The notes under the pieces: model-generated
The model's database searches: none
What the model was told of the DNA's origin: nothing
The model's input: only the letters and a program-made list of their open reading frames with translations
Virus record (IMG/VR): IMGVR_UViG_3300021255_002539
Location: 1 to 64,000 of that record
Length of the DNA stretch: 64,000 bases
Reading direction: 5' to 3' (one strand)
Source of the DNA: a virus
Lineage: Duplodnaviria; Caudoviricetes
Made by a program: the position numbers and the translations under genes
Shown here: positions 518 to 54,467 of the stretch, in pieces
Position numbering within the stretch: position 1 is the stretch's first letter
Layout: each line of letters begins with the position of its first letter

Positions 518-1906
518 ATGAAGAAACTGGGAATAACGAAGGAGCAATTCGAGGAATCTGCCGAACTGAAGAAACAATATGGCAATCTGGCGTATGTAAA
601 CGAATCGGGAAGCCTCTACAAGACAGACAAGGGGAAGATTCTGAAGTTCGTCAAGGAAGCCAGGGAATATGTGAACGACGACAGCATCGAGTCTGACACC
701 GCAGACGAATTCATCATATTCGACGATCCAGACATCTTCAAGAAGATTGCCAATGTGCAGAAGAAGGAAGGCGAGAAGATTCAGGATGAGGTCAAGGACG
801 GAGATGTAAAGCCAAAGGAAGTCGCCAAGGCAGCATCCGCGGCCGCAGCAACTGCCGGAGCCATAGGCCAAATCGGGTCGGCTGCCATAAACACGGCCGG
901 CAACATAGCCACATCGAAGACAGGGCTGGGAATCGCAGCGGCGATTGGATACAAGAAGGTTCTGGACAAGGCTGGCGAGATTGGGGCCAAGATAGGCGAC
1001 CAGGTTGGACAAAACATCTCTGATTTGCTGTATGGAGACGAGATGGCAGAGCTCGACAAGAAGGGTGAGGAGATAAGGCAGCAGTCGAACGCAATAGACG
1101 ACGACTACAACGCCTACGCCAAGAAGACCAATCTGGCGTTGAAGGGGCAACCAGGGTCTGGAAAGGACATCTTCAAGGACAAGCGGGCGTGGAACTACGC
1201 AACTGCACTTCAGAGCGGCAGAAAGGTAGACGATGGAAGGGGCAACGCGATATCCCCAGAGAAGATGAAGGGGTGGCTCAAGGACAACGGCTACCAGATC
1301 AGGGACGATGGAATTGTGCAGAAGATAGACGCCAAGGGAGCAACGACTGCGGCTGCCGGGGCAGCTGGCGCCGCAGCAACCGCCGGCTCAACCACAGGGG
1401 CAAGTGGTGCTGCAGCAGGTGGGTGGTCCTTGTTCGGAATGTCGGCAGCCACAGTTGGATGGATTCTGGCTGGGGTTGCGGCCGCAGCAATCATCACCCC
1501 ATACATCTACGACAAGGTGAGGGCATGTACGAAGACCTGGATGGCTGACATCATCGCAGAGGTGAAGTTCAAGGCAGATGGCAAGAACTACCGTTGCTTC
1601 TACGACCTCAAGAAGAACAAGTGGGTTTTGACCTACGCTGATGTGAAGTGGTCGTCGTACCTGGACAACAAGCTGGACAAGGAAACAATAGACGAGTTCT
1701 TCGCGTCCAAGTTCTTCAAGCAGTTCTTGGACAAGTGCAAAAAGACATTCGCATTCCTGTTCTCCACTGGCAGAAACGAAGTCGTGTTCAAGGCCCTGCC
1801 CGAAATCAAGGACGCACCAAAGGAACTGAAGTCCATCTTGGAGAAGATCTACGACAACAAGGGCGCAATCTCCAAGAACATGTTCTCTGGCAACTACGAG
1901 GATTGA
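518..1906 (+). CDS. Ala/Gly-rich putative virion internal (ejection-type) protein with one TM helix
   Basis: 462-aa frame from MKKLGITK; repeated xxES motifs near N-terminus, AG-rich runs, hydrophobic WILAGVAAAAIITPYIY; late motif upstream. Confidence 0.55.
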   Translation: MKKLGITKEQFEESAELKKQYGNLAYVNESGSLYKTDKGKILKFVKEAREYVNDDSIESDTADEFIIFDDPDIFKKIANVQKKEGEKIQDEVKDGDVKPKEVAKAASAAAATAGAIGQIGSAAINTAGNIATSKTGLGIAAAIGYKKVLDKAGEIGAKIGDQVGQNISDLLYGDEMAELDKKGEEIRQQSNAIDDDYNAYAKKTNLALKGQPGSGKDIFKDKRAWNYATALQSGRKVDDGRGNAISPEKMKGWLKDNGYQIRDDGIVQKIDAKGATTAAAGAAGAAATAGSTTGASGAAAGGWSLFGMSAATVGWILAGVAAAAIITPYIYDKVRACTKTWMADIIAEVKFKADGKNYRCFYDLKKNKWVLTYADVKWSSYLDNKLDKETIDEFFASKFFKQFLDKCKKTFAFLFSTGRNEVVFKALPEIKDAPKELKSILEKIYDNKGAISKNMFSGNYED

Positions 1907-2184
1907 AGATTGGTGTAGAGGCGGTGGAACTCAAGCAACCACTCCTTTGTCAGGTATATCCTGCCAACTCGCCTCCATCTCAATCCATCGTTCCTCAATT
2001 CCTCCAGATACTGACCACTTGATCCCAACCAAGATGTGCGTTCGTCCAACACGCCATCCTGATCGTACTTGTCCAGCATGTCAATTAGCTCATCCTTGAC
2101 TGTGGAAGCTGCCAATGGCAATGGAATATGATTGGGGCTGTTGCTCTTCAGGACATAGAAACTGTCGTATCTCAGAAAACTCAT
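1894..2184 (-). CDS. Hypothetical protein, paralog of the gene at 1-427; ends at TAG
   Basis: MSFLRYDSFYVL...RIYLTKEWLLEFHR shares the motif of the 1-427 product; GGAGG SD upstream. Confidence 0.65.
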   Translation of the reverse strand: MSFLRYDSFYVLKSNSPNHIPLPLAASTVKDELIDMLDKYDQDGVLDERTSWLGSSGQYLEELRNDGLRWRRVGRIYLTKEWLLEFHRLYTNLQSS

Positions 2185-2189
2185 GTCAA

Positions 2190-3029
2190 TCAACCCTCCA
2201 ACCAATCGTTCTCGATTGCGTAGAACCCGAATAGGGAGATAAGCGAGAACACAGACCACAGAATCCAGAATATCAGAACAGCATGGCTGGTCGTCAAGTA
2301 CTTCCTGTATTCCTCCACTGGCATTGACACAAGCAATATGCCTTGACCAACCAGGTCGTTGGACTTCGCCTCCCCGAACAATGTGGCGTTGAAGGTCTTG
2401 GGAACCACGGTGACGACATCCCTCTTGTGATAGCCAGTTGAGTGCTTGCTTGTCTCCTTTGGCATTCCACCATAGTCGAACTTGCCATAGTCGAACTGAA
2501 CGCCACAATATGTCACGGTGGGGGAATGTTCACTTGACCGCCCGACCGTGTCCCAACTCCAATATGTCTCTGTGCGATACCTTCTGTGGGAGCGACCCTT
2601 GCTGTCGGTCACGGTATATGCCACTCGCCTGGTGTGCATTTGGTACTTCTGATGGGCAACCCCCACATACAACCACTCGCCATCCAGATGTTCGTTCTTC
2701 ACTGGCTTGTCTGCAACCAATGTGCCATGTGCGAACACATTCCCAACATCAGTGGAGATGGCATGCTTGAACTCGTCGTCAGAATTCAGAGCCACCGCTT
2801 GGTTGTATTTGAGTTTGGAGTCGTTGACATTCTGCTCTATGGAGCCAGACGCAAAGAAGCCAATGGTGAACAGACCACCGAGTATGAGAATGGAGAAGAT
2901 GAGTTCCCTGAGAGTCAAATCCCAACCATTGCCATCAATCAGAACGATTGGGGATTTGGCATCTTTGGGCAGAGGTCTATATCCCCAACCCTTCCTCTCC
3001 CATTTCTTGTCCCATATTCGGCGCCTCAT
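2190..3029 (-). CDS. Membrane protein (two TM segments flanking a soluble domain), LemA partner
   Basis: 279 aa with N- and C-terminal hydrophobic helices; GGAGG SD; directly downstream of LemA. Confidence 0.7.
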   Translation of the reverse strand: MRRRIWDKKWERKGWGYRPLPKDAKSPIVLIDGNGWDLTLRELIFSILILGGLFTIGFFASGSIEQNVNDSKLKYNQAVALNSDDEFKHAISTDVGNVFAHGTLVADKPVKNEHLDGEWLYVGVAHQKYQMHTRRVAYTVTDSKGRSHRRYRTETYWSWDTVGRSSEHSPTVTYCGVQFDYGKFDYGGMPKETSKHSTGYHKRDVVTVVPKTFNATLFGEAKSNDLVGQGILLVSMPVEEYRKYLTTSHAVLIFWILWSVFSLISLFGFYAIENDWLEG

Positions 3030-3056
3030 TACATTGGCCTCCCAATTATGCGTGGA

Positions 3057-4066: not shown

Positions 4067-4067
4067 T

Positions 4068-6070: not shown

Positions 6071-6100
6071 ATTATAGCATATTTGACTGCTGTTTGTCAA
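6071..6100 (-). promoter_or_regulatory. sigma70-type early promoter TTGACA-18-TGCTATAAT
   Basis: Consensus -35 and extended -10; near-identical core ATGCTATAATATAGGC recurs at 13047, 16707, 25607. Confidence 0.85.
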
Positions 6101-13484: not shown

Positions 13485-14940
13485 TAATTAAATTAAATTG
13501 AATAAACTTCGTAAGGAAATAGAGGCAAACAAGGAGTGAGAATGTGCTAAAATGAAGACGATAAAATGCAAAATAACTAATGACATAGATGTTTCTGAAT
13601 ATCTTAGGAAATATAATAGTGTTTTGCATATTGCATACAATCGTCTAAAAGATTCATATACACAATCAGATATAAAGAAATACATCAATCCAAGATTTGA
13701 AGGATTGAATTCGTTTATCATCCAAAACGCAATTGTATAGGCGTAGTCCCTATTTGATTCCAACAAAGCGAGAAAAATGGAATTTGAGAGGAACAATCCA
13801 AGCAAGAAATACAAAGAAATTGTTTTTGGTGGAAGACACAACTTGAAAAACTACATGAAGGGCCTCATTTCAAAAGAAGAATATCGAAGAAACAAATTGA
13901 TACCGATGATGATTTCTGGCGAGACAAGACATAAAGGAAATAGACTTTTTGATTTGTAGGTTCAGAACAACAAAATTATATTTAAGCCAAAGAAAGGCAT
14001 AAAAATTCTAATCGAGTTCATGTGCTCAAATAAGCAAAACGATGAACTAATGAGAATATAGGAATTATGCCTATAGAAAAAGTATTCAGTTGCGATTGGA
14101 TTGAACAATGAATATGTGATGTTTTGCTTCGATGAAGTTAAATTGAATGGAAACAAATTCGCATATTCTGAATTAAAAGACAATAGAGTATTGGGAATTG
14201 ATCAAAATCCAAATTATTTGGGTGTATCCATATTGGAATTTAATAAGAAGGATAAATTCAATGTAATTCACAAAGAGGTATTTGACTTATCCAATTTAAC
14301 CAAGAAATCAAACTTGGCTGCCTCCCACAGGAAATCGAAATACTTGACTAATAAGAGAAAATTTGAAGTCATAAACTTGGCATATGAAATAGACAAATTA
14401 GTGAATGTGTGGAAAGTTGGAAAGGTTGTTGTAGAGGATTTGAATTTCAAATCAACATCAAATATGAAATCTCATTCTTTGAATAGATTGTGTAGGAATG
14501 TTTGGAATAGATGTTTGTTTGAAAACAAATTGAAGATGGTGTCAAAACTTCATGGATATGAGGTTGTTGAGATAAATCCTTGTTATACTTCGTAGATTGG
14601 TAATATTGTATATGGAAATGATACCACACCAGATATGGTGGCGTCTTCAATTGAAATTGGAAGACGAGGATATAGAAAATTTCAAAAGAATTGGTTCTAT
14701 CCGAAATTCGATGGGAGTTTGAATCAAATAAACGAGCAATGGAAGCAAACGATATTTGATAATTCCATTAAAGATTGGGGGGAATTATTCAACCTAATAA
14801 AAAATTCTAAACTTAAATATAGAGTTTCTTTGGATTGTTGTAGAAACAATTTCAAAGTTTTTAGTCTAAATCATTCAAAGTCTCGTATAATTAGAATGTA
14901 GTTTAATGATTTTTAATGATTTAGATATTTAATTAAAGTA
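13485..14940 (+). mobile_element. Non-autonomous IS200/IS605- or IS607-like tnpB element (ends approximate)
   Basis: Sharply AT-rich block, opposite orientation to flanking genes, single RuvC gene, no tnpA. Confidence 0.7.
13552..14916 (+). CDS. tnpB: TnpB-like RuvC nuclease, 454 aa when TAG=Gln (7 in-frame TAG)
   Basis: Four track fragments lie in one frame broken only by TAG; RuvC-I VLGIDQN, RuvC-II VVVEDL, INPCYTS*(Q), RuvC-III PDMVASSIEIGRRG; ends at TAA 14914-16. Confidence 0.85.
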
Positions 14941-16184: not shown

Positions 16185-16360
16185 ATTGTCAAATCGTATC
16201 TCACGCTCTAGACCCATGGTTCGGCGTCCCCATGGGAAGACTCGCGGCTTCGGTTGCTTTTCTCCATCCCATCTCGACTACTTCTTCCTCAACAACATCG
16301 CAACCAGTCTTTCGTCCCAGCACTTCATCCTTCATCGACCAACAACAATTATACGAAAAC

Positions 16361-17431: not shown

Positions 17432-19006
17432 TCACTTTCTCAACACTTGTGGCACTGGCGCAATCTCCCATGCCTTTGTCAGTTGAATTCGCTCGAACAT
17501 GTTGGGTGAGCTGTCCTTTGTGGTGCCATTGATGGAGATGGTGTGGGTGGTCTTGAAGCTAATCCAACTGCCAAAAAACTGATTATCGCCGAATTGGTTG
17601 GATTCTGTCTTCGCCTCTATCTCAGACTTGTTGTTCGAGTCCACTGGCTCGTCTGGCTTCAATTTGTCGGTGTCAAGCACTTGCTTCTCCTTCATTTCGT
17701 CCTTCCTGCGTATGAGGTAGAAGCACTGATATGGCTGATGGCAGACCTTGTTGCCCCTCGTCAGGATGAAGCTGTCCCTGTTGGCGATGCCCTGTATGCA
17801 GTCGTTGTAGAGGTGGCGTTGGTTGTTCCACTTCGCCTCGTCTATCAGATACCTCGTCTTGTCCTCGTGTAGGAAATCCTGTAGATCGGGCACCGATTCC
17901 TCCGAGGTTATGTCCGGGTTGGGGTAGAATGTGGCGTCCCTCTTTGGGCAGGCATTTGGGGACTTGAAGGTGTTCTGAATCTTCTCGTTCATTATGATTC
18001 TACGAACGAACTTCTCCTTCGTTATGTCCAAGTCCCAATAGTGGCGCGTGTAGTAGTCCTTGATGAACCTGGTGTAGGACATCTTGGACAGGGAGGTGAC
18101 CTAGGGTCTTTGTACCTTCGCCTCGCCAGCACCGGGCATATATGGGTTCACCTCGGTCTCTGTTATCTCGTAGAACCTGCTCAACTGGATGAAGTTGTGC
18201 TTCGTCCTCAACATGGTGGTCTCGTCGTTGAGCTTCGCCATCCTGTACTTCCTCTCCTTCTCGTCCCAGAGGATTATACGGGGGTGGTTGTCCACATCGA
18301 AGGAAGATGGTTCCATGTACATTCTGTTGAGCAGGTAGTTGATGGCAGTGAAGTAGTTGTCCTTCTGTGTGGTGGTGTAGTAGATGCAGATGTCTGTCTT
18401 GCAGGGATCCTCCAGAAAGGTCTGTGTCGCAACATTGTCCAGTCCAACGGCGTCAACGAGCAGCTTGGCTATTATGGTGGTTATTGGCTCTGGCTCCTTT
18501 TGGTTGTAGTTGGAGTACTGGCATACGGCAGAAAGCTTGTACCAGGACGCAGACACCAGTTCCAGGCGGTATGTCGTGACATCCGTATGCGTGTCGTGGG
18601 ATATTATCTCCATCTTGTTGACCAGGAAGGTGTGGTTGAAGTAGTCCTCCTTCTTGATTGGCTTCTCCACCCAATAGTCCGACGCTGGCTCCCCATCTTC
18701 CCGGACTGCTGACTTCTTCTCGGCCAGGTTCTCTGCCCACTCCACCTTGACGAGCAGATGTGGGATTCTAAACATCTTGCCCAAGTTGCGCTCTGTGTCC
18801 TTGTACACCAACTGCCCAGTGAGTATGAGAGCATTCCATTGGTTGGTGTACTCGAACAAGGATATGTTGGCGGGGTTCAAGATGATGTTCTTCATCTATA
18901 TGTTGGTGGTGTCGTAGACAGTCGCCTGGAAGCTCCATCCAGTTCCATCTATGACCCAATGCCCCTGAATCAACTCGGGATTCGGCGTTGTACTATAAGT
19001 AGCCAT
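17432..19006 (-). CDS. Putative baseplate hub-like structural protein, 524 aa with 2 TAG=Gln
   Basis: Joins 18101-18895 and 17432-18082 via TAG; ATG 19006 just after gp4 stop; ILTGQLVYKD reminiscent of gp27-type hubs (weak). Confidence 0.5.
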
Positions 19007-19013
19007 TATGCCA

Positions 19014-19511
19014 TTATACCTTTCTTATCAGTTCCTTTTCTGTTATCACCCTGAACAACTTGCCCTTCGCCTGGCAAATCTTCGCAGCCATCTTCCACTT
19101 CGCCAGGTTGGTGGCGTATGTCCTCACGCTCTCGTTGTACGCAATCGTGTTTCGGCCTCTCTTGGGTGGTTGTGTCTCTCCACTGGACTTGATCTCCACC
19201 CAGACCTCCTGTGTAGTTGGACCAGACCTCACCCACATCACGAAGTCCACTATGTAGTGCCTTTGCCTCTATTGTACTGGGTCGAAGTAGGGTATCGTGT
19301 TCATGGGGTTCTCGTAGTCCCACTTGAGGACATCTGGGTTGTTGTCCAGATACCTGATGAACATCGCCTCCAATTTCGACTTGAAGAGGATGTACTTGGA
19401 GTTGCGCAGGTTCTTCTCGGGGTGCGAGAGATAGTATTTGCCCCGAAGGGCTGTCTTGTACTTGCCCCTTGTCGCTTGCCCCTAGTAGAACCTTCTGTTG
19501 CGCATTGCCAT
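19014..19511 (-). CDS. Head completion nuclease (T4 gp4 / TnsA-like), 165 aa with 2 TAG=Gln
   Basis: GKY...HPEK...I.FKSKLE..F..YLD.NPDVLKW.YE...IPYFDPV..RQRHYIVDF...VEIKS..ETQPP...N.AKW.MA...C...G..FRVITEKEL. Confidence 0.85.
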
Positions 19512-19517
19512 GTTGTG

Positions 19518-22500: not shown

Positions 22501-22715
22501 TCCAGGGCAACTGCATCCCTGAATGTCGGGTGGTTGAAGTCAATGCCATATTGGGCGAGATAATCCTTTGGCTCTTTTCCATTGTAGTTCATCCTCCAAG
22601 CCTTGTCCCCTGAGAACAAGTCCTGGAATTTACTAGTCAATTCACCAGGAAGGGTCTTGTTCAGATCCTCGTAGTGGCATATGTAGCCAATCTTGTCAGA
22701 AGCATCTTTCATCAT
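19518..22715 (-). CDS. Large coiled-coil late protein, 1065 aa with 9 TAG=Gln
   Basis: Six track fragments in one frame with only TAG between them; TGA at 19518; start overlaps the upstream gene's stop. Confidence 0.75.
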
Positions 22716-24166: not shown

Positions 24167-24177
24167 TATTTACCATT
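24167..24177 (-). promoter_or_regulatory. Late-type promoter AATGGTAAATA
   Basis: Recurring motif heading the 24127-to-17432 structural operon. Confidence 0.7.
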
Positions 24178-34600: not shown

Positions 34601-36010
34601 GCCGAAGTTCTGAGTTCCTCCCCGGAAGTCCAATCTTTTGCCAGTACCTCCAATGATGTAGTCCCAGTACTTGACGCCATCACTGTTCTTCAACGATGTC
34701 CAATATCCAGTCAAATCGCTCTCAGTGTATGTCCACAAGTCGTCGTACTCGATGAACTTGCCTCCCCCGCTACTGCCCAATCCGATGTCGGGTCTTGTCA
34801 ACTTGGACTCGTCCTCGAAAAACGACTGGAACTGCTCTACCTCCTTTTTCCCACTGTAGGAATATGTGATGTCGTTGGTGGCGTTCACCTCTATGTCCCA
34901 AAAGCCATAGTCTGTCATGGCAATCGACACACTGTCCAATTCACGCATCTACTCAACCTTGTCGAATGCCTTGTCTACAGCTATTGTCAATCCATCTACC
35001 ACCACTTGGTCTATCTCAGAAAAACCATATTTGGGGTCGAATGAACTCTCGTTGAGGAAGAAGTACCTGTACTTTGGCTTGTCCGAATTGGACTTCTCCA
35101 CCGCAACGAACAGGAATGTCGTCTCGTCTGCTATGGCATGGAAACTGCAGGTCTTGAACTCCATTTCAGATATGAAGTTTGGGGATTCTGCGCCAATGTC
35201 GTACAAGACCAGGCCAGCCAATTTGCCATTCTCCTGGTATGTGCCAAAACCCAACAGACCACTGTACTCGGAGTCTGGCAAGGTGCAGCACAAGATGTAC
35301 TTGCAGTTGCATATGTGCATGCCCTGGAACGCGGAATTGTCGTAGAATGCGTTCTCGACTATGCTGTTCACCTTGAGTTTGCTTGACTTGAACCACTCGT
35401 TTGCCGAGGCAGCAAGTGGGTTTGGATCCCTCTGACCAGCATCGTCTACAGGGTAGAGTGGAACATCCGAGAATGGGTTTCTGACATCAGAACTGTCGTA
35501 GAACCTGTTCATCGAATCCACAATCTCCATGTTGCTGTACACGACATCCCCATCGTCGTCCCTGATGTTCTGAACTCCATACCACACCGAATTCAGATTC
35601 ACAAACTCGTCAATCCCCTCTGGCAAGTCGAGCTTCTCGATGTCCAGGACAAGATCCCTGGTCTTGAATGTGCCATTGTCCCCATCTATGTCCAACAGCA
35701 ATTTGGTGGAGTTTGGCAGAATTGTGTTCTCGTCCAAACCCTCGACAATCTTGAAGTAGGAATCAGCCAGGACAGTGTATTCGTGGTTGTTGATGCAGTC
35801 AACAACATACGCGATGTCAACAATGTAGTTCGACAATATTGCGTTCAATGTACTTGAACTCGATATCTGATAGTCGTGCAGAATCAAGTCGTCCAAAGTG
35901 GGCTTGAACCCGCCATTCTTGCGTCTATTGGAATCCAATATCACTGACTTGAGAATGTTGCTCTCAACCAACGCCCTCTGCCTTATGTCGTTTGAATCGT
36001 ATCTGGTCAT
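25658..36010 (-). CDS. Giant virion protein (tail fibre/adhesin-like), 3450 aa with 7 TAG=Gln
   Basis: Six track ORFs share one frame with only TAG between them; TGA at 25658; C-terminal InlB-B/Listeria-Bacteroides repeat (YVVKF..NGG...LGDLP...VGWFT...VTENTTYYAHW) and a LamG/ConA-like beta domain; late motif at 36052-59. Confidence 0.8.
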
Positions 36011-36051: not shown

Positions 36052-36083
36052 TATTTACCATTCTTGGCCCGAAATGGTAAATA
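36052..36083. promoter_or_regulatory. Back-to-back divergent late promoters
   Basis: TATTTACCATT-cttggcccga-AATGGTAAATA inverted pair between divergent genes. Confidence 0.75.
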
Positions 36084-36091: not shown

Positions 36092-36520
36092 ATGGCAGAA
36101 GAAAAAGCAGAACAACAAAAGACCAGAAGTGGCGGTGGATGCTCAGGTGGTTCAGGTGGAGCTGGAGTTGGGGAATACTCGGCGTCAGATGGTCAGTGCC
36201 ACGAAAACCCAAAGACCCCACTGTTCAAGTTGGAGATTGAGGAGAACAACCTCCCAGAGAACTGGTGGGACAAGCTCCCTGACTTCGATCCAAGAATTTA
36301 CGACGCAATAGCAATGGAACAGGCTGCCGCCTGCGTGACGTACATATTCGACGGCCTCCCAGACATCCACGAACTGGAGAACATGATTGAGTCCAGGAAG
36401 AACCCAAAGACCTGCCCCAGGTTAAAGACCCAAATTCCCAGAACCCAGGTCATAATTCCAAAAGAAGTGAAATGTGAGGTCAAGATTGATTCCTTCATCA
36501 AGAAAGATCAGACCTATTAA
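36092..36520 (+). CDS. Hypothetical late protein
   Basis: MAEEKAEQQ start just after GGTAAATA; Gly-rich N-terminus. Confidence 0.65.
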   Translation: MAEEKAEQQKTRSGGGCSGGSGGAGVGEYSASDGQCHENPKTPLFKLEIEENNLPENWWDKLPDFDPRIYDAIAMEQAAACVTYIFDGLPDIHELENMIESRKNPKTCPRLKTQIPRTQVIIPKEVKCEVKIDSFIKKDQTY

Positions 36521-38181
36521 CCGCATTGGAAGTTCATCTGCGCTTGGTTTGGAACCTTCGTCTGAACATCCTTGAACTCGTCCATCGTCACCTTCTGAAT
36601 CAACCCATCGCGTATCCTCTTCACAGCAAACGACCTGTCGTTGAATGTGACGTGTCTGGGCAAGGCCGAGAAGTCTGGAACCCTGTCTGTGAATATGCTC
36701 TGATGGTCAAACCTCTTGGTTGGGTTCTTCAAGTTGAGCCAATTGAACCAAAGCGACATTATGATTACATTCTTGCGGTGCATGTAGTCAATCTCGTTGC
36801 ACATCTTGAGGAACAACTTCTTGTTGATGGGGGCGAAGATGTGTGGCTCGTAGAAGTAAATGTGCTCTCGGTTCCCAACAAACCTGTCAAGCGTTTGAAC
36901 CAAAAGACTGTCCCATGAATTGTTTCGGCAATCCCGCTTCATTCCATCCATGAATGCCTAAGTCTGCTTGTACTCGAACACATACCTCGGGGCGAAATCC
37001 TCCCAATCGGTCCTCTTCGTCACCATTATGTCGTCAGAACAAAAAAGGAAATTGCTGGACAACTTGGGTATCTTCTCTATAGCAGTCCTTATCTTGTGTA
37101 TGATGTTCGCATCCTTGTTCGACTTCGTGATGTCAGGGGCGTAGATGTGGTGTACCCTCGGGTTCCTTATCAAGGGGTTCTCGCCAACGACATAGATGTT
37201 GTCCACCCAATGGTCGCAGAACTTCAATATTGATGTTATGGATATCTTAATCTCAAGGTTCTTGTACTTGCTCCCCTTGCCCAGAACATACACGACATCG
37301 TGGCGAATTGGCTTCTTGAGGTTGTACTGGAACAACCTCTCTGTGTCGGGGTCTATCTTTGGCCGAGATTCCCATGTCAATTGATCCAATCTGACGAACT
37401 TGGAACGGGATTTCGGAATCTGAACCACCCTCTTTTCAACACCGCCATCAACTGGCTCTTCTCTGAACAACCCAAAGCACTGTCCAATTGACTTGCCACC
37501 AGACAGATTCTTGACTATCCCAGCAACAGCATTGTCGTACCTCGGGCCAATCTCGTACTTGTAGTCGCCATGTGGCATGGTCTCAAGTGGAACGACAGAA
37601 TTGACGCGCTTCCCAACGCAATACTTCGTGCAGGGAACCAACTGGTAGCCATTGAGGTGGCAAAGATAGAGATATGTCCTGTCGTCGTTGCATGTGTCAA
37701 GGACTGGCTTCTGAACGAACTTCTCCCAATTGTCAAGCATCTTCTTCGTGAACAGCGAATAGCAGGACATAACATAGTTGTCCATGTTGATGGTTCTGGA
37801 TTGGTTCGATGTGATTGGATGCTCCCTGTTGTTGTCGTTGAAGTCCTTCATCCTCGCCTCTATGAAGTCCTTTGGGAGAAGGGCGTCGTCGTCAATGTCT
37901 ATGATGATGTCGTCGTCCTCCAAGTATGGCAGAACAGGAAACACCTTCTTCATGGACTTCGTGTTCTCCTCCACCCAATTGAGTATTACCCGATTGGATG
38001 TCATTATCAACTAATACAAGTCCTTCGGCAAATCAGCCTCCCAATTGGGGAATTCCTGATGGGACAATGTGAGGTAGATTCGGTCAGGAAGGACCGAATT
38101 ATCAAGTACAGAATTTATGACCTTGACGCAGTTCGTTATGCGCCTTGGAAACGATGTCATGCAAATGTTTATAGTGGACAT
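36517..38181 (-). CDS. GT-A fold glycosyltransferase + Stealth-like phosphotransferase fusion, 554 aa with 2 TAG=Gln
   Basis: MTSFPRRI...PDRIYL...KKVFP...IDIDDD...CNDD; then DVVYVLG..S.Y.N.EIK.SI.SI.KF...IYVVGE...NFLFCSDD; GGTAAATA at 38201. Confidence 0.7.
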
Positions 38182-38218
38182 ACATATGATCCTTTGGGAG
38201 TATTTACCATTCACTTTC

Positions 38219-38977
38219 TCATTTGTCCTTGCCACGGAACTCGATGTTGAGTTTCTTCAATGGGTCGATGAGCCTGCCAAGGGGCGTGTACCTGAACTTG
38301 CGCTCCATCGCGTTCACGTCCTTCGGGAAGCACTTGCCACCATATCCCAACTTGCCATCTGGACCAGGGACTTGGGTATGGACGTCGTTGATGTATGTGG
38401 ATGCGAGGATTCCGGAGCGAACGCGCTCGTAGTCCATTCCCATCTTCTGGCAGAGGTCGTAGATGCAGTTGAAGTAAGTCACCTTCAACGCGCCAAACAC
38501 GTTGTGGGCGTACTTCACCATCTCAGCTTCCTCTGAGGTCATCTCCACGTACTTCTTGCCCACGAAAATCCTCTTGAGAATCTCGCGATGCTCTGGGGCG
38601 CCAGCGAACACCATAGGCTGCCACTTGAAGTCCTCGATGTATGTGCGCTCGGTCAAGAACTCCGGCATGTGGTAGACAATCCTGCCAGTGAGATCCGACA
38701 ACTTCTTGGATGTCCCGGGGAGAATCGTGGTTCTTATCCATATTGGACGACCCTTTGGCAAGCCATTTATGATGTCAATCAATGGCGTCAAGTCCTGTGT
38801 CCCATTGTCCTCTGTCGGGACATGTATTTGGATGAAATATGCATCGCAGTCAGACACATCGTCGTGGAAGCCCTTGTATGGGTCGGAGATGCGCAGTTCG
38901 CAGTCTGGATTGTTATTTTCCAGCCAGTTCTTCAATGCTCCACCAACGAAGCCACAGCCTATTATTCCTATTTTCAT
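38219..38977 (-). CDS. ugd: UDP-glucose/GDP-mannose 6-dehydrogenase (short phage-type form)
   Basis: IGIIGCGFVG, VPT, PEFLTER, AEMVKY..N.F.ALKVTYFN, GYGGKCFPKD. Confidence 0.92.
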   Translation of the reverse strand: MKIGIIGCGFVGGALKNWLENNNPDCELRISDPYKGFHDDVSDCDAYFIQIHVPTEDNGTQDLTPLIDIINGLPKGRPIWIRTTILPGTSKKLSDLTGRIVYHMPEFLTERTYIEDFKWQPMVFAGAPEHREILKRIFVGKKYVEMTSEEAEMVKYAHNVFGALKVTYFNCIYDLCQKMGMDYERVRSGILASTYINDVHTQVPGPDGKLGYGGKCFPKDVNAMERKFRYTPLGRLIDPLKKLNIEFRGKDK

Positions 38978-39705
38978 AGTAAGTGCTCCTTATTATTTTC
39001 CTTAAATTCTCTTAATCTATTATTATAGTCTTCAATGCTTTTATTCTATCCTCTACTCTCAGAACCATACCAAAAATGAGATATGCACTTCCAAATATCC
39101 ACATCCTTGTATTTCACACCATTTGCTGTAATCCACAAATGAAAATACCATCCAGGGTCAGCGAAATAAGTATTTTCAAACTATTTGTTGATATTTAATG
39201 ATTGGATATTTATGCCAACACTAACATCTGATTTATGGTAGGATATTTCCCTACCATTAAATGAATCCAAGTTAAAATACATAAGCATCGGCTATATTCT
39301 CCCGCCAAACAAACAAGCATCCTTTGTAAGTAATGTCCAAGACTGGTTTACATAATTTCCAACGACTTGAAAATTAGTATCGCATATTTCAGACAAATCA
39401 CATTTTACAATGGTATCGTTTTCAACAATCAATAATTCTTCATACTCCAAATGATTTTTTATAATGTCAAGTATTTTTTGAATTGCCGGAGCATGAGACG
39501 ATATATTATATGATTTCTTGAAGTTCAATATTGTAATGTTGTCATAATTGAATTTACTATCCAGGGTAAAATCTTTGTCAGATGTTGAAACTATCCACAA
39601 GTCAAATTTATCTTGACTGTTGTATTTATACAAGCTTTGAATAAAACACTCGTTGGTTATTCTATCAGCATTAAAGGTTATTGTTGCTATTAGTCGTTTC
39701 TTCAT
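38974..39705 (-). CDS. Putative glycosyltransferase, 243 aa with 3 TAG=Gln
   Basis: Read-through ends at TGA overlapping the ugd ATG (ATGA); H..AI..I, LLIVENDTIV, RI*PML.Y.N, DPG. Confidence 0.6.
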
Positions 39706-39720
39706 AAAATTCACTCTGGT

Positions 39721-40473
39721 TTATACACATACATTCTATGCTTTGCACTTTGTGTCGTCATTGTAGTTCCACGAAAAATCATTGAAGTGCATGAAATACA
39801 TTGATTCATCCATATTGGGAAAACATGTATTCTATATGTCTTGGTGCGTTATGGTTGCATCTCTAAACTTCTTTTTCAATGTCTCAAACTGAGATTTGAC
39901 AACATCATTGTCAAAATGCCTATCATAGATTGAAAATATGAATTTCCTCTTTGACGTCCAGTAGATGTTTGACCACGCCTCCTGGCACTGCAACTTGCAT
40001 AGACTGTCAAATGAAAACATGTTCGTGTCAAAACCAATGGCGCACTTGTCTGACGATTTATTGTCCATGTGCATTATGCCAATCATGTCATTGTCCAGTA
40101 TCTCATCGGAAAACGACTTTATTGGATATGTGTCGCAGTCAATGTAGATTCCACCAACCATTGAAACCAGATACACCTTGAATCTCTCCAGGATTTCCAT
40201 AATGTTCTTTACGGTTTTCCCTTGAACACCCTTGTATATCTTATCGTTAGAATTCACCTTATAATGGTGTATTGCATGCCACAATGCCTTGTCCTATGGG
40301 TTTTCCACATTTTCAAGTTCTTCTCTGGAAAGGGATTCAATCTTATCCTTTGTGTACAGAACCCTGTTTATTTCATAAGAAGGATTCATTTCCCCATATG
40401 CAGTGAGGACATGTTCGTAATAATCAGGAACATTGTCCCCAAGCCATATAAAATGCAGACTTTTGTCAATCAT
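39721..40473 (-). CDS. GT32-like DXD glycosyltransferase, 250 aa with 3 TAG=Gln
   Basis: MIDKSLHFIWLG...NPSYE...GGIYIDCD...H....SW; AAGGAGG SD. Confidence 0.8.
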
Positions 40474-40495
40474 GTGAAACTTACCTCCTTCATTT

Positions 40496-42634
40496 TCATT
40501 TTTCTATTTTTGATTTCAGCATTGCCTTCAAATCATCCAATACTGGGCTGTCTTTGCATTTGGAAATCACCCCAAGAAACAGTTCAAAGGACTTTTCCCT
40601 CTTCTTGTTGTCCGTGGTAGTCATTATGGAGTTTGAATGCACAGTCCTCATATAGCATTGTTCCTGAATCTACATGCACCTTTTGGCGCAGTTGAACACC
40701 ATTGGGGTGAACACAACATCCTCGTGGATTGCATTTTCAACGAAGGAAATGCAGTTCTCTCTCAGCATGTGCCTTTTCATCACAGAACAACAAGCAGATT
40801 CAATATATGACTTGTTCTTCTTCAGTTTGAAGTACAATGTATTGCCATCCAGAACCTTATCAACATATTGATTTATGTCCCCCTTCAATGAATAATACCG
40901 CTCATATCCCTTGGCAGTAGTATCATCCTCCTACTGATTTACCACTTTGAAGGTGAAACGAAGAAAATCCAGGTCGTTCTTCTAGCAAAGAGACATCCAC
41001 TTGTGTACCACAAACTTGTTTGCAAGGTAATCGTCAACATCAAGGAATTGCACATAATCCCCGGTGGCGTTCTTCAAACCAATGTTTCTTGGATTTGAGC
41101 AACATCCGCTGTTTTTGGCAGTCTTGAACACTTTTATGTTGGAATACCTCTCTGAATATTCCTTCAGAATTTTATTCGAGTTGTCCGTGGAGCAGTCGTC
41201 AACGCATATGATTTCAATGTTGTCGTAAATCTAATTGAGCACTGAACCAAGGCATCTGTCAATGTACTTCTCAGCATTATACACAGGTATGATGATTGAT
41301 AGCTTCAAACTTCTATTCGCCTATGTCGAATTGGAATATGTTGCCACCATATCGTGCAATACTCGCACTATGACATGCTTGGGCTAATTGGAGAATTTGT
41401 ATGTGTTCTTTTGTATCTATTCATAAAACCCATTGTAGTCAATAAGTCCCTTCATCAACTCATTTGCGTTCTCTTTCTTGTTCTTGACAAGATGCAAATT
41501 GCATAATACCTTGAACATTGGATTTGAAAAGTCGAGCCAAGCGAGAAGTCCGTTTTCGTCGTCGTAAATGTACTTGTTCATCCACGGATAGAACACAGAA
41601 ACCATAAAGTCCCTTTGACCATATGATCTATTTGCCATATCTCCATGGAAAAAATGGCATACATCAACATAGTTTGCTCCCATTAGGCTCTTGTTGGAAC
41701 TTTTGCTCAATCTTCTCATTACATAGTGAACATATTTGCGTTTACATAGTTTAGGCAACCATATGGCCGTGTTCTCAATGTCAGTAAGTTCAGTCCAAAA
41801 TAGGATATCACCTCCACCAAGTGGAAGGAAATTGAAATAATCTATGTACTAAAGAGTATTTTTCTCTATGCAAAACACACCACCTGGAGCGCATGTGTTC
41901 AATATTCGATCAATACTACAATTGGACAATTGGGACGAAAATGATTTTTTGTGGCGTTTTGTCTCCTTGTCGTTTTCATCCAAATACACTATGTCGTTAA
42001 ACCCCTGTGTGAACAAACACTTGTCCAAGGCATCGTAGACTTGCTTGAACCAGTCCTTATCCTCCAATGGGGAAATGTCGGAGTCCACGAACATCAATTT
42101 CTCGTACCTGGCACGTTTAGCTGCTATATTCCACAAATGCTCCTTTTGGAACAAGTACTTGTGGGAGTCATTGCCATCTATCCTTATATATTGAATCTAC
42201 TTTGGAAAGTCCTCCTTGGAAAATGTGAATACCCCATTGAATCCAAGCTCAATGAACATCATTTCCTTTGGTAGATGCGATTGCTTCATCCAGCAATTCA
42301 CTGCCTTTTTAGTGGCGACTTTCCTCAACTCATTTATGCCAGCATCGTAGAATACAGAAACCATCGTCATGTCCAGATAATCGTGTTGCTTGGGGTCAAA
42401 ATCAACCAAGTCAAACTCTCTGTTCCATGTCATCTTGACTTGTGGCTTGGACATCACAAATTGGATAAAGGATTCGGGCAAATCAATCATTCTATTGGGA
42501 AACAATGCTGTGGGCATCTTAACATACACCAACTCAGGCTTGTTGGTGTTGGTCATCAACTCGTCTATATCCTTTATCAAAGAATCAACATCCTATTTGT
42601 ACTCCAACTGGACAACATTCTTTCTACCATCCAT
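40496..42634 (-). CDS. Two-domain glycosyltransferase (GT-A-like + GT2), 712 aa with 10 TAG=Gln
   Basis: FQKEHLWNI...FVDSD...GGGD; then KLSIIIPVYNAEKYIDRCLGSVLN*IYDNIEIICVDDCSTDNS...RNIGL..ATGDYVQFLDVDD...HED; GGTAAATA at 42663. Confidence 0.85.
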
Positions 42635-42702
42635 TTATGATAAATCTCCTTCATTCAAAGGGTATTTACCATTTCCAATCCAATTGCAATTGCACACCAA
42701 AA

Positions 42703-43593
42703 TTACTTACGGGAACTTATTTCCATCAACATCTTGGAATACTCCACTACACCATAATCATTCAAATGCCTGCAATCGCACATCCATTCTGCCGGTGGAA
42801 CAAACGATTTTATTTCATTGTGTTTCTGAGACAATTCCCTGCAAGTCTTAGTCAAAACACTATCTACAACCAAGAACTTGAAATTTGGTTTTGCCAAGAT
42901 ATCCTTTACAGCATCATATTCCCCATAATGAACATGCTCCAAATCCATGGTAACTATCGTCTTGTCCTCGTTTTGCTACGAGGAAAGTTCTCGCATCATT
43001 GGAAGATGGTGATATGAATGATGACCGCTTACTCCAAGCGTGGCAACATTGACACCGTACTGCCGATACATGTATTGGGAAAGTCCCATATGGTTTACAT
43101 TATTGCAGGTTTGGGCGACACTTGAACCGAGTATGACAATTGATGGTGGCACATAGTCGTACTATATCGGTTGATCAGATTCAATTTCCATCTTCTTGAC
43201 AAGTCCATCTGGAGGAAGACATATTTGAAACTTATCGTACTTGTTTAAGTTCCATATCTTCGCCTAAATCCATGTCTTGTCAGATTGGCAATCAAGAGGG
43301 GAATAACCGTTGAGTTCGCTCAACAAATCCCACCTATTGTCCTGACTGGAATATCCCAGGACGGTGCATTCCACCTTCTGACGCTTGGATATTCGATAGA
43401 AGTCATCTGAAAAATGACAAGTATACCTTAAACTCCATGACTTTGATTTAGTGCGAATGACTATAAACAAACCACATCCATATCTAAGAATCTTGTCTAT
43501 ATGCGTGTTTCCACTATTGCCATCATATCTATAGAAATTGCTTGATTGTTTCAACCTTCCCCAAAGGAATTTCACATCCACATTTGTTTTCAT
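42703..43593 (-). CDS. Hypothetical protein of the glycan island, 296 aa with 3 TAG=Gln
   Basis: Joins 43264-43629 and 42703-42948 in frame; ends at TAA. Confidence 0.6.
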
Positions 43594-43609
43594 ATTTACC
43601 CCCACATAG

Positions 43610-45460
43610 TCATCCATGCATAAATTCATTGTAATTCAACGGTCTTTGACTATAAGTCATATAATCATTGTGTATTGTGCCTTTGTTTGCAAACATCCAC
43701 TCCACCAATCTCTTGGTGTTGTTTGTATCCACATATGTAAACAACTTGTGCGAAAAATCGAATTTCCCGGTTGATGCATCCAACAACTCCTAAATCTTGG
43801 ACAATGCTTGTTCCTATGTCTTGCAATAGGACATGTGAACATAATCCAAATGTTCAAGATGATAGTGGTTTAACGAGGCATTCAAATCATTGATCCCAGG
43901 TATATATATGACAGATGGTTTGTCCATATATGCCATCTCAAATGAATTGGATGAGAAATCAGTTACAATCACATCACTTTCCACCAATATATCCTGAAAT
44001 GTATCGGTTTTTGGAATCTTCACCCAAGATGGTATCTTGAACCTGGATAGTTTATTGAGTAATTTGGCATGGGGAAGAAACACAATTGACACCCCAGAAT
44101 CATGCAATTGTTTCAACTTCTCACTGGCCAGGAAATTGTTGATGTCATTGAAGTATTTGGATGTTCCACCACCTCTTCGCCAATGAAATGATATAAAAAC
44201 CTGCTTTTTGCGCTCTACAGATGAACGCAAGGTGTTTTTCTCCAATAATGTGTCATGCCTGGGAAATCCAAGAAGAAGGGGTGTCAATTTTCCTTTAGAA
44301 TATCTTGTCAACACCTTGTATTCCCCCCTTGAAGTAGCCAACATATATTTCGCTTCACTTGATATTGTTCCTGAAATATAGAACGAATCGTCATATATCG
44401 TAGATGTGACTCCATGTCCCATGAATATGGTTTTATACCTGTTGCTCATCAAGGTTGTTTTGATGTCTGTGTTTGGAACATCCTTTGAAAACAGAACAAA
44501 AGTGGCGTTTTTTATGATAAACCCAATATGTTTCCCCTCAAATGGATATAGATTAAATCCTTCTGACTTCAGCCTTGTCCAATCCTTGCTTTTGTTGGAT
44601 AAAATGAATGTTGCCTTTATGTTTGGATAATCATGGGAAATGCGTTTATACAAGAACTCTCCGTTGTCTCCGGCCTTGTCGAATGAATCAAATATAACCA
44701 CATTGAACAACGAGTCTTCAAATGACTGTGGCATCACCTAATTGTATCTCAGTTCAATCTTGGGAAATGCATCTTTGTTTGATAAATATTGATGTGTCTT
44801 TCCCATTGGAAATACACTTCCCCTCTACATCATATTCCTTTTGGCATACCCATTGTGTGCGGATATCTTCTTGGATGGCAACACCCAATACCCATTTGAA
44901 ATCATCAACATTGTATATAGAAAATCGTCGTTGTATGTGTGAATAATTTCATCACATAGAATCTTGTCGTAGTTCGCAAGCATCTTTTTCTGGAAGATGG
45001 ACATTGCCGTTACATTGTTATATACAACACCGTTATACAATGGCAAATTCAAATGCCACTTTGGATTGGAACCGCCAGATATTGGAAATCTGAAATCTTC
45101 TTCTGCAAATTCGTTCAACCGAATTTCAATATAGTCGTTTGGTATCACAAAATCATCATCGACATTTAATATAATGTCCTCGTCGTCAATCAATGGCAGA
45201 ACTGGGAACACCTTCTTCATAGTCTTTGTGTTTGGACCTTCCACCCAATTTATCTTGAATGTTGGTTCAATTTTCGACAACTATACCAAATCAGAGGGTA
45301 AATCAACCTCCTTGTTCGGAAACTCAACCACTGCCAAGTTCAAGTATATGATGTCTGGCTTAACTGTGTTGTTCAATATAGACTTTACGACCTAATAGCA
45401 ATTTCCAATCCTCTTTGTCCAAGAGGTCATCGTCACCACAACCTTGTGCCCGTTAAACAT
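43610..45460 (-). CDS. GT-A glycosyltransferase + TagF-like CDP-glycerol/ribitol phosphotransferase fusion, 616 aa with 6 TAG=Gln
   Basis: VVVTMTSWTKRI...NVDDD; then KAGDNGEFLY, FMGHG, GFPRHD, F.PH, QDILVESDVIVTDFSSNSFEMAYMDKP; GGTAAATA at 45496. Confidence 0.85.
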
Positions 45461-52973: not shown

Positions 52974-52974
52974 G

Positions 52975-53724
52975 TCACCAGACCCTCCCGCCAACAATGT
53001 TCTTGAAGTTCTCCACTGTCATCCCATATTGGTCGATAACATCGGTGAACTTCTGCATTTCCTCGGCCCTCTTCGCCAACTTCCCCTCGTATTCGCCTAT
53101 AGTGGTCAAATGGAAGTTTCGGTTGCGGGTGAGTCTTTTGATGGTGGCTGTGGCAGACTCCCACAAAAAGGTATTCGGCTGGGTGTTGATTTCGTTCATG
53201 AAGGCCTCCACCTTGAGCATCAATCCAAGTACCTCCTTGGCGGAGCCCATTGTGTCCACTTTACCAAGTCCAATCTGCTTGCTGACCAGGAGAACAGCCA
53301 GTTCGTCGCCATGGTGGTCGAGGAACCTGCCAACCGTGGAACGGCATATGTGGAACGGCAAAGGGGCATTGTAATAGGGAATTCCATATGGATATCCAAC
53401 GAAATAGGGTCTTCCACCAATATTGGCGATGTATTTGGCATAATCTGTCTCGCCAACAGCCTTCGTCAGAATCTGGGAGTCGATGCATTCAAGGGACTTC
53501 AACTCGCCATCTGAACCAATATTGGCTATCCTCAACTCGAACCTGGGTGTATCCCCAAAGGGGTGTCGGTACATCACAATCCCAAACTTGACCTTGAACG
53601 CCACATTGCCAACCTCCACGCCATATTCCTTGTCGTGGTAGAATGCGTGGCGACGGTATCCTGGGAAATGGATACCATCAACCACCTTGCTCAATTTCAC
53701 GCTCTTAATATCCTTCTCGTCCAT
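52975..53724 (-). CDS. Paralog family B member
   Basis: HFPGYRRH; C-terminal coiled coil ending IDQYG; GGAGGAG SD. Confidence 0.65.
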   Translation of the reverse strand: MDEKDIKSVKLSKVVDGIHFPGYRRHAFYHDKEYGVEVGNVAFKVKFGIVMYRHPFGDTPRFELRIANIGSDGELKSLECIDSQILTKAVGETDYAKYIANIGGRPYFVGYPYGIPYYNAPLPFHICRSTVGRFLDHHGDELAVLLVSKQIGLGKVDTMGSAKEVLGLMLKVEAFMNEINTQPNTFLWESATATIKRLTRNRNFHLTTIGEYEGKLAKRAEEMQKFTDVIDQYGMTVENFKNIVGGRVW

Positions 53725-53741
53725 CTTGCTTCTCTCCTCCA

Positions 53742-54467
53742 CTACAGAGCAATCTCGATTCCAAACCTCTCGGAAAGCTCGTTCATCGCCTCTGCGGCGG
53801 ATTCTGAAATCTCCTGCTCCTTCTTCGTGTACTTCTCAATTTCCTTGGACTCTGCGTCCATCTGACTCCTGAGCCATGTGATCTTGCTTTTGAGGTATTC
53901 CTCTGATCCATCATGCTCCATGTAGTTCAGTTTTGCAAATGCGTTCCATGCCTGCTCGGCGTCGACGAATGTCCTCAACTTCTCAGGATATTGCGCCATT
54001 GCCACCATCGCCAACCCACAATGCATGGCAATCAGCCCTGCAGGAGTCCTTGGCATCGAACTCAGAACTGGAAGCACACTATATATAGTAAGCTTTTTCA
54101 TCCAATCGTGGGTGTCCATCGTCAGTAACGCCCTACCCTCAACCTCCTCTATGTTGAACTGGACGGGGCACATCGAGAGGAAGTCATCTGGGTTGGCCTC
54201 AACGCACATCTTGACCAGATTTGGTGGAATCGGTTCCCATTTCCCAGTAATGGAGTTGGGGTAGATTATCTCCTGCATGACCTGGCCTTTTCCATTATGG
54301 TAGTAGGTGTTCACGAAAAAGGCAATCTTCACGGATGTAGGGGAGTTGGAATTGGTATATGCCTTGAATGTGCGCACCTTGTACCCAGGGATGGTCAATG
54401 GGTTCATGGGTTCCGACACGAACTTCCAATAGTACCAGGATTCTGATGTTGGCAGTGAATGGTGCAT
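53742..54467 (-). CDS. Paralog family B member; ends at TAG
   Basis: TIPGYKVR, MAQYPEKL, AEAMNELSERFGIE. Confidence 0.65.
   Translation of the reverse strand: MHHSLPTSESWYYWKFVSEPMNPLTIPGYKVRTFKAYTNSNSPTSVKIAFFVNTYYHNGKGQVMQEIIYPNSITGKWEPIPPNLVKMCVEANPDDFLSMCPVQFNIEEVEGRALLTMDTHDWMKKLTIYSVLPVLSSMPRTPAGLIAMHCGLAMVAMAQYPEKLRTFVDAEQAWNAFAKLNYMEHDGSEEYLKSKITWLRSQMDAESKEIEKYTKKEQEISESAAEAMNELSERFGIEIAL

What the first reader, a model, noticed from the sequence alone, without database searches (positions are those of the whole stretch)
1894..54467. Two codes in one genome: TAG-Gln only in late-promoter genes, apparent TAG stops in early genes
Seen: apart from tnpB and the 58551-64000 structural block (whose promoter lies outside the window), every TAG-containing gene lies downstream of a GTAAATA motif. 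None of the several dozen genes behind sigma70-type promoters is split by TAG. Two early genes end in TAG where read-through looks implausible. At 1894 it would run about 270 nt antisense into the 518-1906 gene; at 53742 the TAG is immediately followed by the next gene's GGAGGAG SD. Inference: the host uses the standard code and the phage switches TAG meaning late, gating structural and glycan genes.
Basis: partly seen in the sequence, partly recalled or inferred. Interest (0 to 1): 0.75.

Follow-up and report, generated by a model that had tools for sequence, protein, structure and literature searches.

The report
TAG: late glutamine, early stop
This 414-kb phage reads the stop codon TAG as glutamine almost only in genes behind its late promoter, while about a dozen early genes still end on TAG; this is a clear, well-quantified example of an already published "two codes in one phage" idea, not a new mechanism.

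Summary
In the window, 41 genes behind sigma70-type promoters have no internal TAG, while 12 of 18 genes behind the AAT[G/T]GTAAATA motif do (Fisher p 1.7e-8). Genome-wide, TAG/(TAG+Gln) is 0.6% in 200 early genes and 9.9% in 116 late genes. The gap persists in the four GC strata with enough early Gln codons (odds ratio about 14 after GC3), so AT content does not explain it. Both named genes end on TAG. Four homologues of the 1894 gene and seven of the 53742 gene stop at or one residue before it. I could not fetch their DNA, so their stop codons are unknown. About ten more early or middle genes look TAG-terminated (8 TAGs in the last 20 codons of early genes, 0.7 expected), mostly with a backup stop close behind. 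TAG aligns with conserved Gln in the portal protein. An odd tRNA(CUA) sits behind a middle-type promoter. The gp55-like late sigma gene carries two early TAGs. "Only late" is overstated. Timing is inferred, not shown. The model is published (Borges, Yutin, Mgcod). This scan had already noted it in other windows of this genome and on other phage DNA.

The parts
1894..2184 (-). Gene A: 96-aa conserved early-operon gene ending on TAG (1896-1894). It is the last gene of the operon behind the promoter at about 6071-6100 and overlaps gene 518-1906 convergently by 13 nt.
   Evidence: Sequence read. Four non-self homologues at 77-80% identity end at the same residue or one earlier. Weakly positive coding score in this frame only.
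1210..1893 (-). Frame that TAG read-through of gene A would enter: 228 codons antisense to gene 518-1906, with six further TAGs before the first TAA/TGA.
   Evidence: ORF list with TAG=Q; sequence.
518..1906 (+). Late gene (462 aa, no TAG) behind GTAAATA at 479. It carries the N-terminal leader shared with other late proteins.
6071..6100 (-). Early promoter (perfect TTGACA, 18-nt spacer, TGCTATAATATAGGCG) heading the operon that ends with gene A.
13552..14916 (+).
17432..24127 (-). Late operon of four genes (471, 1065, 165 and 524 aa) with 18 in-frame TAGs, behind GTAAATA at 24173.
   Evidence: Fragmented homologues of the 1065-aa protein.
25658..36010 (-). 3450-aa late ORF with 7 in-frame TAGs, behind GTAAATA at 36058.
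36517..45460 (-). Late glycan-type genes. Stealth-like, DXD-type glycosyltransferase, GT2 and TagF-like Pfam matches fall on four of the TAG-bearing genes. Six of the seven genes carry 27 TAGs in all, and much of the block is AT-rich. They lie behind GTAAATA at 38207, 42669 and 45502. The UDP-glucose dehydrogenase-like gene 38219-38977 inside the block has no TAG.
53742..54467 (-). Gene B: 241-aa early gene ending on TAG (53744-53742). The TAG is followed at once by SD GGAGGAG (53740-53734) and the ATG (53724) of gene 52975-53724.
   Evidence: Seven non-self homologues at 67-74% identity all end exactly at the TAG position. The 14-codon tail has a negative coding score.
54504..54533 (-). Early promoter of gene B (perfect TTGACA, 18-nt spacer, TGCTATAAT).
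58551..64000 (-). Tail/baseplate block: tape-measure-like 1484-aa gene with 6 TAGs, gp25-like gene without TAG, and the start of a 745-aa gene with 7 TAGs. Its late promoter lies beyond the window at about 65.8 kb.

Best explanation
The window belongs to a complete 414-kb T4-like jumbo phage that uses TAG in two ways, sorted by transcription class. Genes behind strong sigma70-type promoters (early) are written to be read by an unmodified standard-code host. They avoid internal TAG almost completely, and about a dozen, including the two named genes, still use TAG as their real terminator. Genes behind the gp55-type late motif AAT[G/T]GTAAATA (virion, tail, glycan and giant proteins) use TAG as a glutamine codon. 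The TAG is read by a phage tRNA(CUA) that stands behind a third, middle-type promoter (TTTCGTATAATTG, no -35). The late sigma factor gene is also middle-class and has two TAGs near its start. So late transcription itself probably waits for the suppressor. Shown here: the codon and promoter statistics, the conserved C-termini at the two TAGs, the tRNA, the sigma gene, and TAG aligned to conserved Gln in the portal protein. Inferred: the order in time, the standard code of the host, and competition between host RF1 and the suppressor.
For: Genome-wide cross-tabulation: early class 200 genes, 37,039 codons, 6 internal TAGs, 985 Gln codons; late class 116 genes, 56,844 codons, 239 TAGs in 63 genes, 2,180 Gln codons. 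The difference is significant in four of the five GC strata (p from 0.008 to 6e-11). The lowest-GC stratum holds only four early Gln codons and is not significant. The logistic odds ratio for late is 13.7 after GC3. Off-frame TAG differs only 1.25-fold. By genes: 63 of 116 against 4 of 200, p 6e-29. Terminal TAGs: 8 in the last 20 codons of early genes against 0.73 expected (p 1e-6), with no excess in late genes (5 against 10 expected). Homologues of genes A and B end at the TAG. Other TAG-terminated genes have Pfam matches that run to the C-terminus: SbcC-like to residue 627 of 633, and an EcoRI-type methylase to model position 343 of 345. Portal protein: TAG codon 161 aligns with Q in 20 of 22 close and 55 of 72 distant homologues, and codon 49 with Q in 8 of 8. 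A tRNA(CUA) lies at 297,903-297,981 with a 7-bp acceptor stem, U1-A72, G73 and an encoded CCA, about 35 nt behind TTTCGTATAATTG. The gp55-like sigma matches PHROG_234 at E 3e-17 and has TAGs at codons 24 and 26. Late-class genes include portal, sheath, gp15-like, gp25-like and tail-fibre proteins. No RF-1 domain gene was found.
Against: There are no expression data, so 'early' and 'late' rest on promoter resemblance and gene function. Operon assignment used the nearest upstream motif and ignored terminators. The stop codons of the homologues are unknown, so a conserved TAG followed by a conserved short extension cannot be strictly excluded for gene B. Nine middle-class genes and up to four early-class genes carry internal TAG. 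In the 1065-aa late protein, Gln is not enriched at TAG-aligned columns (4% against 30% at true Gln codons), and one TAG sits on an invariant Glu. The tRNA is not recognised by ARAGORN or the Rfam tRNA model. Its fold z-score is only -1.6.
Confidence: 0.72

Rival explanations
1. Composition artefact: in-frame TAG simply follows local AT content and the Gln content of the proteins, with no link to transcription class.
For: TAG share is highest in AT-rich late genes: 28% of TAG+Gln codons below 42% GC, against 7-8% above 47%. Late proteins are richer in Gln (3.8% against 2.7%).
Against: Within four of the five GC strata, late genes have significantly more TAG per Gln codon (p 0.008 to 6e-11); early genes have 0-4 TAGs per stratum, and the lowest-GC stratum holds too few early codons to test. 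The odds ratio is 13.7 after GC3. Off-frame TAG trinucleotides differ only 1.25-fold.
Confidence: 0.03
2. One code throughout: TAG is always Gln. The 'TAG-terminated' early genes are then really read through to the next TAA/TGA and make short C-terminal extensions.
For: Most tails are short (median 6 codons), so the extensions would be harmless. The homologous proteins come from standard-code gene calls, which would be cut at a TAG anyway.
Against: All homologues end at or one residue before the TAG, and the C-terminal sequence and length vary in the gene A family. Gene A's extension is 228 antisense codons with six more TAGs. Gene B's tail overlaps the next gene's SD and start and scores as non-coding. 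Terminal TAGs are about 11-fold enriched in early genes but not in late genes. Pfam domains end at the TAG in the SbcC-like and methylase genes.
Confidence: 0.1
3. No timed switch: suppression is constant but weak, and TAG is a translation-level attenuator. Highly expressed and early genes avoid it only for efficiency.
For: The major capsid gene has no TAG. 53 of 116 late genes have none. TAGs sit mostly at variable alignment columns.
Against: The suppressor tRNA and the TAG-bearing late sigma gene both stand behind a promoter class distinct from early and late. The almost complete absence of TAG from 200 early genes of all lengths is stronger than an efficiency bias would predict.
Confidence: 0.12

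Closest known systems
Alternatively coded (code 15, TAG to Gln) gut phages and the code-switch model of Borges et al. (bioRxiv 10.1101/2021.08.26.457843); crAss-like phages of Yutin et al. (PMC7886860); proteomic proof in Peters et al. (PMC9523058)
   Same: In-frame TAG is concentrated in structural and late genes. Replication and early genes are compatible with the standard code. The phage encodes a suppressor tRNA. The host is presumed to use the standard code. The proposed switch happens during infection.
   Different: This is a 414-kb T4-like phage at 48% GC with three recognisable promoter classes, so the bias can be tied to promoters and not only to gene function. The suppressor tRNA is atypical and missed by the finders. 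No release-factor gene is present.
Phage genomes with blocks of different genetic codes, Mgcod (Pfennig, Lomsadze and Borodovsky, bioRxiv 10.1101/2022.06.29.495998)
   Same: One gene set needs code 15. The other is enriched in early functions and reads almost the same under either code.
   Different: Here the classes are interleaved operon by operon, not two large blocks. The early set is not fully 'dual-coded': about 12-13 early or middle genes terminate on TAG and would be extended under code 15.
Phage T4 late transcription: gp55 sigma factor and the TATAAATA late promoter (from established knowledge)
   Same: A gp55-like protein (PHROG_234) and an AT-rich -10-type motif, GTAAATA, 35-45 nt upstream of virion gene starts.
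   Different: The motif differs (AAT[G/T]GTAAATA). The sigma gene carries two in-frame TAGs. gp33 and gp45 partners were not examined.

Membership tests
Code-15 (TAG to Gln) alternatively coded phages | In-frame TAG codons inside conserved genes, whose read-through restores full-length proteins | tested here: met
   Read through, the portal gene matches Pfam Portal_T4 over residues 104-549, which spans TAG codon 161 of its four TAGs (the other three lie upstream). GT2 and TagF-like domains also match in read-through ORFs.
Code-15 (TAG to Gln) alternatively coded phages | TAG positions align with glutamine in homologues | tested here: met
   Portal codon 161: Q in 20 of 22 close and 55 of 72 distant homologues. 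Codon 49: Q in 8 of 8. The 1065-aa protein was inconclusive, and one of its TAGs lies on an invariant Glu.
Code-15 (TAG to Gln) alternatively coded phages | Phage-encoded suppressor tRNA with anticodon CUA | tested here: met
   A cloverleaf with a CTCTAAC anticodon loop, U1-A72, G73 and encoded CCA lies at 297,903-297,981. It is not recognised by ARAGORN or Rfam. Aminoacylation is untested.
Code-15 (TAG to Gln) alternatively coded phages | Recoding biased to late, structural or lysis genes, with early genes compatible with the standard code | tested here: met
Code-15 (TAG to Gln) alternatively coded phages | Host uses the standard code and the meaning of TAG changes during infection | not testable with these tools
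   The host is unknown and there are no expression data. Indirect support only: conserved TAG terminators in early genes.
Mgcod-type genome with several codes and a dual-coded early set | Early genes give almost the same proteins under code 11 and code 15 | tested here: inconclusive
   True for about 95% of early and middle genes. About 12-13 end on TAG. Most would gain only 1-17 residues, but gene A and the genes ending at 70276 and 104020 would not.
T4-type late transcription | gp55-family sigma factor plus an AT-rich -10-type late promoter upstream of virion genes | tested here: met
   PHROG_234 at E 3e-17. 96 of 118 GTAAATA sites lie within 120 nt upstream of a same-strand start. Co-activator and clamp were not tested.

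The most novel reading that the evidence does not exclude
The TAG terminators kept in early genes are not mere leftovers but a second output of the code switch. Once the suppressor tRNA is made, these early proteins (methylases, an SbcC-like nuclease subunit, a GT8 transferase, genes A and B) would be made with short C-terminal extensions, or run into antisense sequence, which would change or shut off their activity late in infection. The unusually close backup stops (median 6 codons against 18) would then be selected to set the length of the extension.
Probability: 0.1. Interest if true: 0.6.

Novelty: new member of a known kind. Interest (0 to 1): 0.33.

Why it matters
The genome gives an unusually clean, promoter-resolved view of a published hypothesis: that recoded phages start infection in the host's standard code and switch to TAG=Gln later. 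Conserved TAG terminators in early genes are the mirror image of sense TAGs in late genes. They are indirect evidence that the host still terminates at TAG. In practice, neither code 11 nor code 15 alone annotates such a genome correctly. About a dozen early genes would be wrongly extended or lost under code 15, and about a hundred late genes are shattered under code 11.

Tried and rejected
tblastn against the phage collection found nothing. The genome search does not draw relatives for a virus record. So the stop codons used by the homologues remain unknown.

(2) ARAGORN at default, with introns, and at lowered thresholds (ps90 and ps80) gave no credible tRNA(CTA): none at ps90, and at ps80 (286 mostly spurious calls) one 'tRNA-Pyl (cta)' at about 344.9 kb that I did not examine. 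The Rfam tRNA model did not hit the suppressor locus either. I accepted the tRNA after reading the sequence by eye, with an MFE fold that gives the same cloverleaf.

(3) The odd 'tRNA-???' at 367,853-367,926 has no CTA anticodon and is not the suppressor.

(4) Inferring the amino acid from the 1065-aa late protein was inconclusive: A, Q, E, S and K were about equally likely. In-genome paralogues were also uninformative.

(5) ORF 8-433 (+), which ends on TAG, is antisense to a minus-strand gene that crosses the 107-bp terminal repeat. It is not a gene.

(6) Most other short gap ORFs ending on TAG have negative coding scores and were discarded.

(7) The GTAAATA at 43599 lacks the AAT context and lies inside coding sequence. 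It is probably a chance site.
Full report
WHAT THE WINDOW IS. The window is the first 64 kb of a complete IMG/VR virus record of 414,060 bp. The record has a 107-bp terminal repeat and 48% GC. It carries a 9-kb tRNA array plus a tmRNA at 362-371 kb. It also carries T4-like virion genes: a gp23-type major capsid gene, a gp20-type portal, a tail sheath and a gp15-like gene, and a gp25-like gene. I called genes with a home-made 3-periodic Markov model on TAA/TGA-delimited frames. This gave 444 genes and 91% coverage. I added gene A by hand.

THE OBSERVATION. Under the standard code many long minus-strand frames are shattered. With TAG read through they become single ORFs of 471, 1065, 3450, 712, 616 and 1484 codons.

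The intergenic regions show three promoter types:
- Late type, AAT[G/T]GTAAATA. There are 118 GTAAATA sites in the genome. 93 of them lie in the roughly 9% that is intergenic. 96 lie within 120 nt upstream of a same-strand start, most often 35-45 nt upstream.
- Early type, a near-consensus sigma70 promoter: TTGACA, 17-18 nt spacer, TGcTATAATATAGGCG.
- Middle type, TTTCGTATAATTG without a -35 box.

In the window, 41 early-class genes have no internal TAG. 12 of 18 late-class genes carry 58 TAGs (Fisher p 1.7e-8). The only TAG-bearing gene without a late motif is the 30%-GC transposase-like ORF 13552-14916.

Genome-wide figures:

| Class | Genes | Codons | Internal TAG | Gln codons | TAG/(TAG+Gln) |
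|---|---|---|---|---|---|
| Early | 200 | 37,039 | 6 | 985 | 0.6% |
| Late | 116 | 56,844 | 239 (in 63 genes) | 2,180 | 9.9% |
| Middle | 88 | 19,007 | 20 | 541 | 3.6% |

The early-late contrast is significant in four of the five GC strata (p from 0.008 to 6e-11). The lowest-GC stratum holds only four early Gln codons and is not significant. A logistic fit gives an odds ratio of 13.7 for 'late' after GC3. Off-frame TAG trinucleotides differ only 1.25-fold. AT content raises TAG use within late genes but does not explain the class difference.

THE TWO TAG-TERMINATED GENES. Gene A runs from ATG 2184 to TAG 1896-1894 (96 aa) and is the last gene of an early operon. It has four non-self homologues at 77-80% identity. 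They end at the same residue or one residue earlier, and their C-terminal sequences vary. Read-through would run 228 codons antisense to gene 518-1906, through six more TAGs.

Gene B runs from ATG 54467 to TAG 53744-53742 (241 aa). It starts 36 nt after the -10 box of a perfect early promoter. Seven non-self homologues at 67-74% identity all end exactly at the TAG position. The TAG is followed at once by GGAGGAG and the next gene's ATG. The 14-codon tail has a negative coding score.

One caveat applies to both genes. The homologues are database proteins that were presumably called with the standard code. Their DNA could not be fetched, so I do not know which stop codon they use.

GENERALISATION. 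TAGs that occur in early-class genes lie overwhelmingly at the 3' end. There are 8 in the last 20 codons against 0.73 expected from the internal rate (p 1e-6). Late genes show no such excess (5 against 10 expected). Counting genes A and B and two gap ORFs with positive coding scores (ending at 70276 and 104020), about 12-13 early or middle genes terminate on TAG. They include:
- an SbcC/Rad50-like gene whose SMC_N match ends 6 residues before the TAG;
- two adjacent EcoRI-type adenine methylases, one matched to model position 343 of 345;
- a GT8 glycosyltransferase.

Several show classic operon junctions, with the TAG lying between the SD and the ATG of the next gene. The next in-frame TAA/TGA follows after a median of 6 codons, against 18 for early genes that end on TAA/TGA (one-sided p 0.014). 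This hints at selection for backup stops, but the evidence is weak.

WHAT TAG ENCODES, AND THE SWITCH MACHINERY. In the portal protein, TAG codon 161 aligns with Gln in 20 of 22 close and 55 of 72 distant homologues. Codon 49 aligns with Gln in 8 of 8. In the 1065-aa late protein the TAG columns are mostly variable and Gln is not enriched. One TAG (codon 345, window 21683-21681) lies on a Glu that is conserved in 32 of 34 homologues. This remains unexplained.

ARAGORN and Rfam find no credible tRNA(CUA). Following a lead from earlier notes, I read a 79-nt cloverleaf at 297,903-297,981 on the minus strand. It has the anticodon loop CTCTAAC, U1-A72, G73, an encoded CCA and an 8-nt T-loop. It stands about 35 nt behind a middle-type promoter.

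The gp55-like late sigma gene (79,305-79,961; PHROG_234, E 3e-17) also stands behind a middle-type promoter. It has TAGs at codons 24 and 26 and no usable downstream start. No release-factor gene is present. The major capsid gene has no TAG.

MECHANISM, AND WHAT IS SHOWN OR INFERRED. The sequence shows a consistent wiring. Early genes are readable, and in about a dozen cases terminated, by a standard-code cell. The suppressor tRNA and the TAG-locked late sigma gene are middle-class. Late genes use TAG as Gln. The likely sequence of events follows from this. The host terminates at TAG at first. The tRNA then accumulates and competes with host RF1. The sigma factor is completed. Late promoters fire, and their TAG-bearing messages are translated. 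The order in time, the host's code and the efficiency of suppression are inferred, not shown.

COMPARISON WITH THE LITERATURE. This is the model of Borges et al. (10.1101/2021.08.26.457843). It also matches Yutin et al.'s finding that reassignment is confined to late genes (PMC7886860), the code blocks of Mgcod (10.1101/2022.06.29.495998), and the proteomics of Peters et al. (PMC9523058). Mgcod describes the early block as 'dual-coded'. Here it is so only for about 95% of genes. In the papers I read, I found no explicit count of TAG terminators retained in the early genes of a TAG-recoded phage, but the idea is implicit in all of them.

The scan's earlier notes had already reported the TAG/late-promoter link, the odd tRNA and the TAG-locked sigma gene for other windows of this genome. 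They also reported similar patterns on other phage DNA. Other first-stage notes flagged the terminal TAGs I recovered independently at 70276 and 289479.

VERDICT. The interpretation matches a published model. Novelty: a new member of a known kind, with a modest refinement, namely quantified and conserved TAG terminators in early genes with close backup stops.

Noticed in passing
genome 297,903-297,981 (-), outside the window; locus L001:204-282: An amber-suppressor tRNA(CUA) with an 8-nt T-loop and an unusual D-loop. ARAGORN (even at lowered thresholds) and the Rfam tRNA model miss it. It stands about 35 nt behind a TTTCGTATAATTG promoter.
   Followed up: partly
window 21681-21683 (TAG codon 345 of gene 19518-22715, minus strand): This TAG lies on a column that is Glu in 32 of 34 homologues, including one at 78% identity. 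Across this protein Gln is not enriched at TAG-aligned columns, unlike in the portal protein. Either Gln is tolerated at a conserved Glu, or decoding is not purely Gln.
   Followed up: partly
window 13552-14916 (+): A transposase-like ORF (PHROG_12300) at 30% GC with seven in-frame TAGs, on the opposite strand to its early-gene neighbours and without a late motif. It may be a mobile element that itself depends on the recoded TAG.
   Followed up: partly
genome 385,246-387,213 (-): Two adjacent EcoRI-type adenine methyltransferase genes of low GC (38-43%). Each stands behind its own early promoter and each ends on TAG, with a backup stop 1 or 7 codons later. They may be recent imports from standard-code bacteria.
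   Followed up: partly
genome-wide; in the window e.g. the -10 boxes at 16353 and 46680 (-): A third promoter class, TTTCGTATAATTG, without a -35 box. In several places it overlaps a late motif as TCGTATAATTGTAAATA (for example 206,294, 230,301 and 387,434).
   Followed up: partly
genome 204,870-206,054 (+): The gp23-type major capsid gene has no TAG at all, and 53 of 116 late-class genes have none. So TAG cannot gate every virion gene individually.
   Followed up: partly
genome 367,853-367,926 (-): A tRNA-like gene (Rfam tRNA, 43 bits) with a 6-nt, or alternatively 8-nt, anticodon loop (CGTCATAG). ARAGORN cannot assign it an anticodon.
   Followed up: no
window 38219-38977 (-): A UDP-glucose/GDP-mannose dehydrogenase-like gene of only 252 aa. 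It appears to lack the first ~70 positions of the N-terminal NAD-binding domain and the whole C-terminal domain (the central domain and part of the N-terminal domain are matched). It sits between AT-rich glycan genes.
   Followed up: no
window 1-454 (-) joined to genome 412,708-413,953: A minus-strand gene runs across the 107-bp terminal repeat. The record's start point therefore cuts a gene, and the '+ ORF 8-433 ending in TAG' is only its antisense strand.
   Followed up: yes
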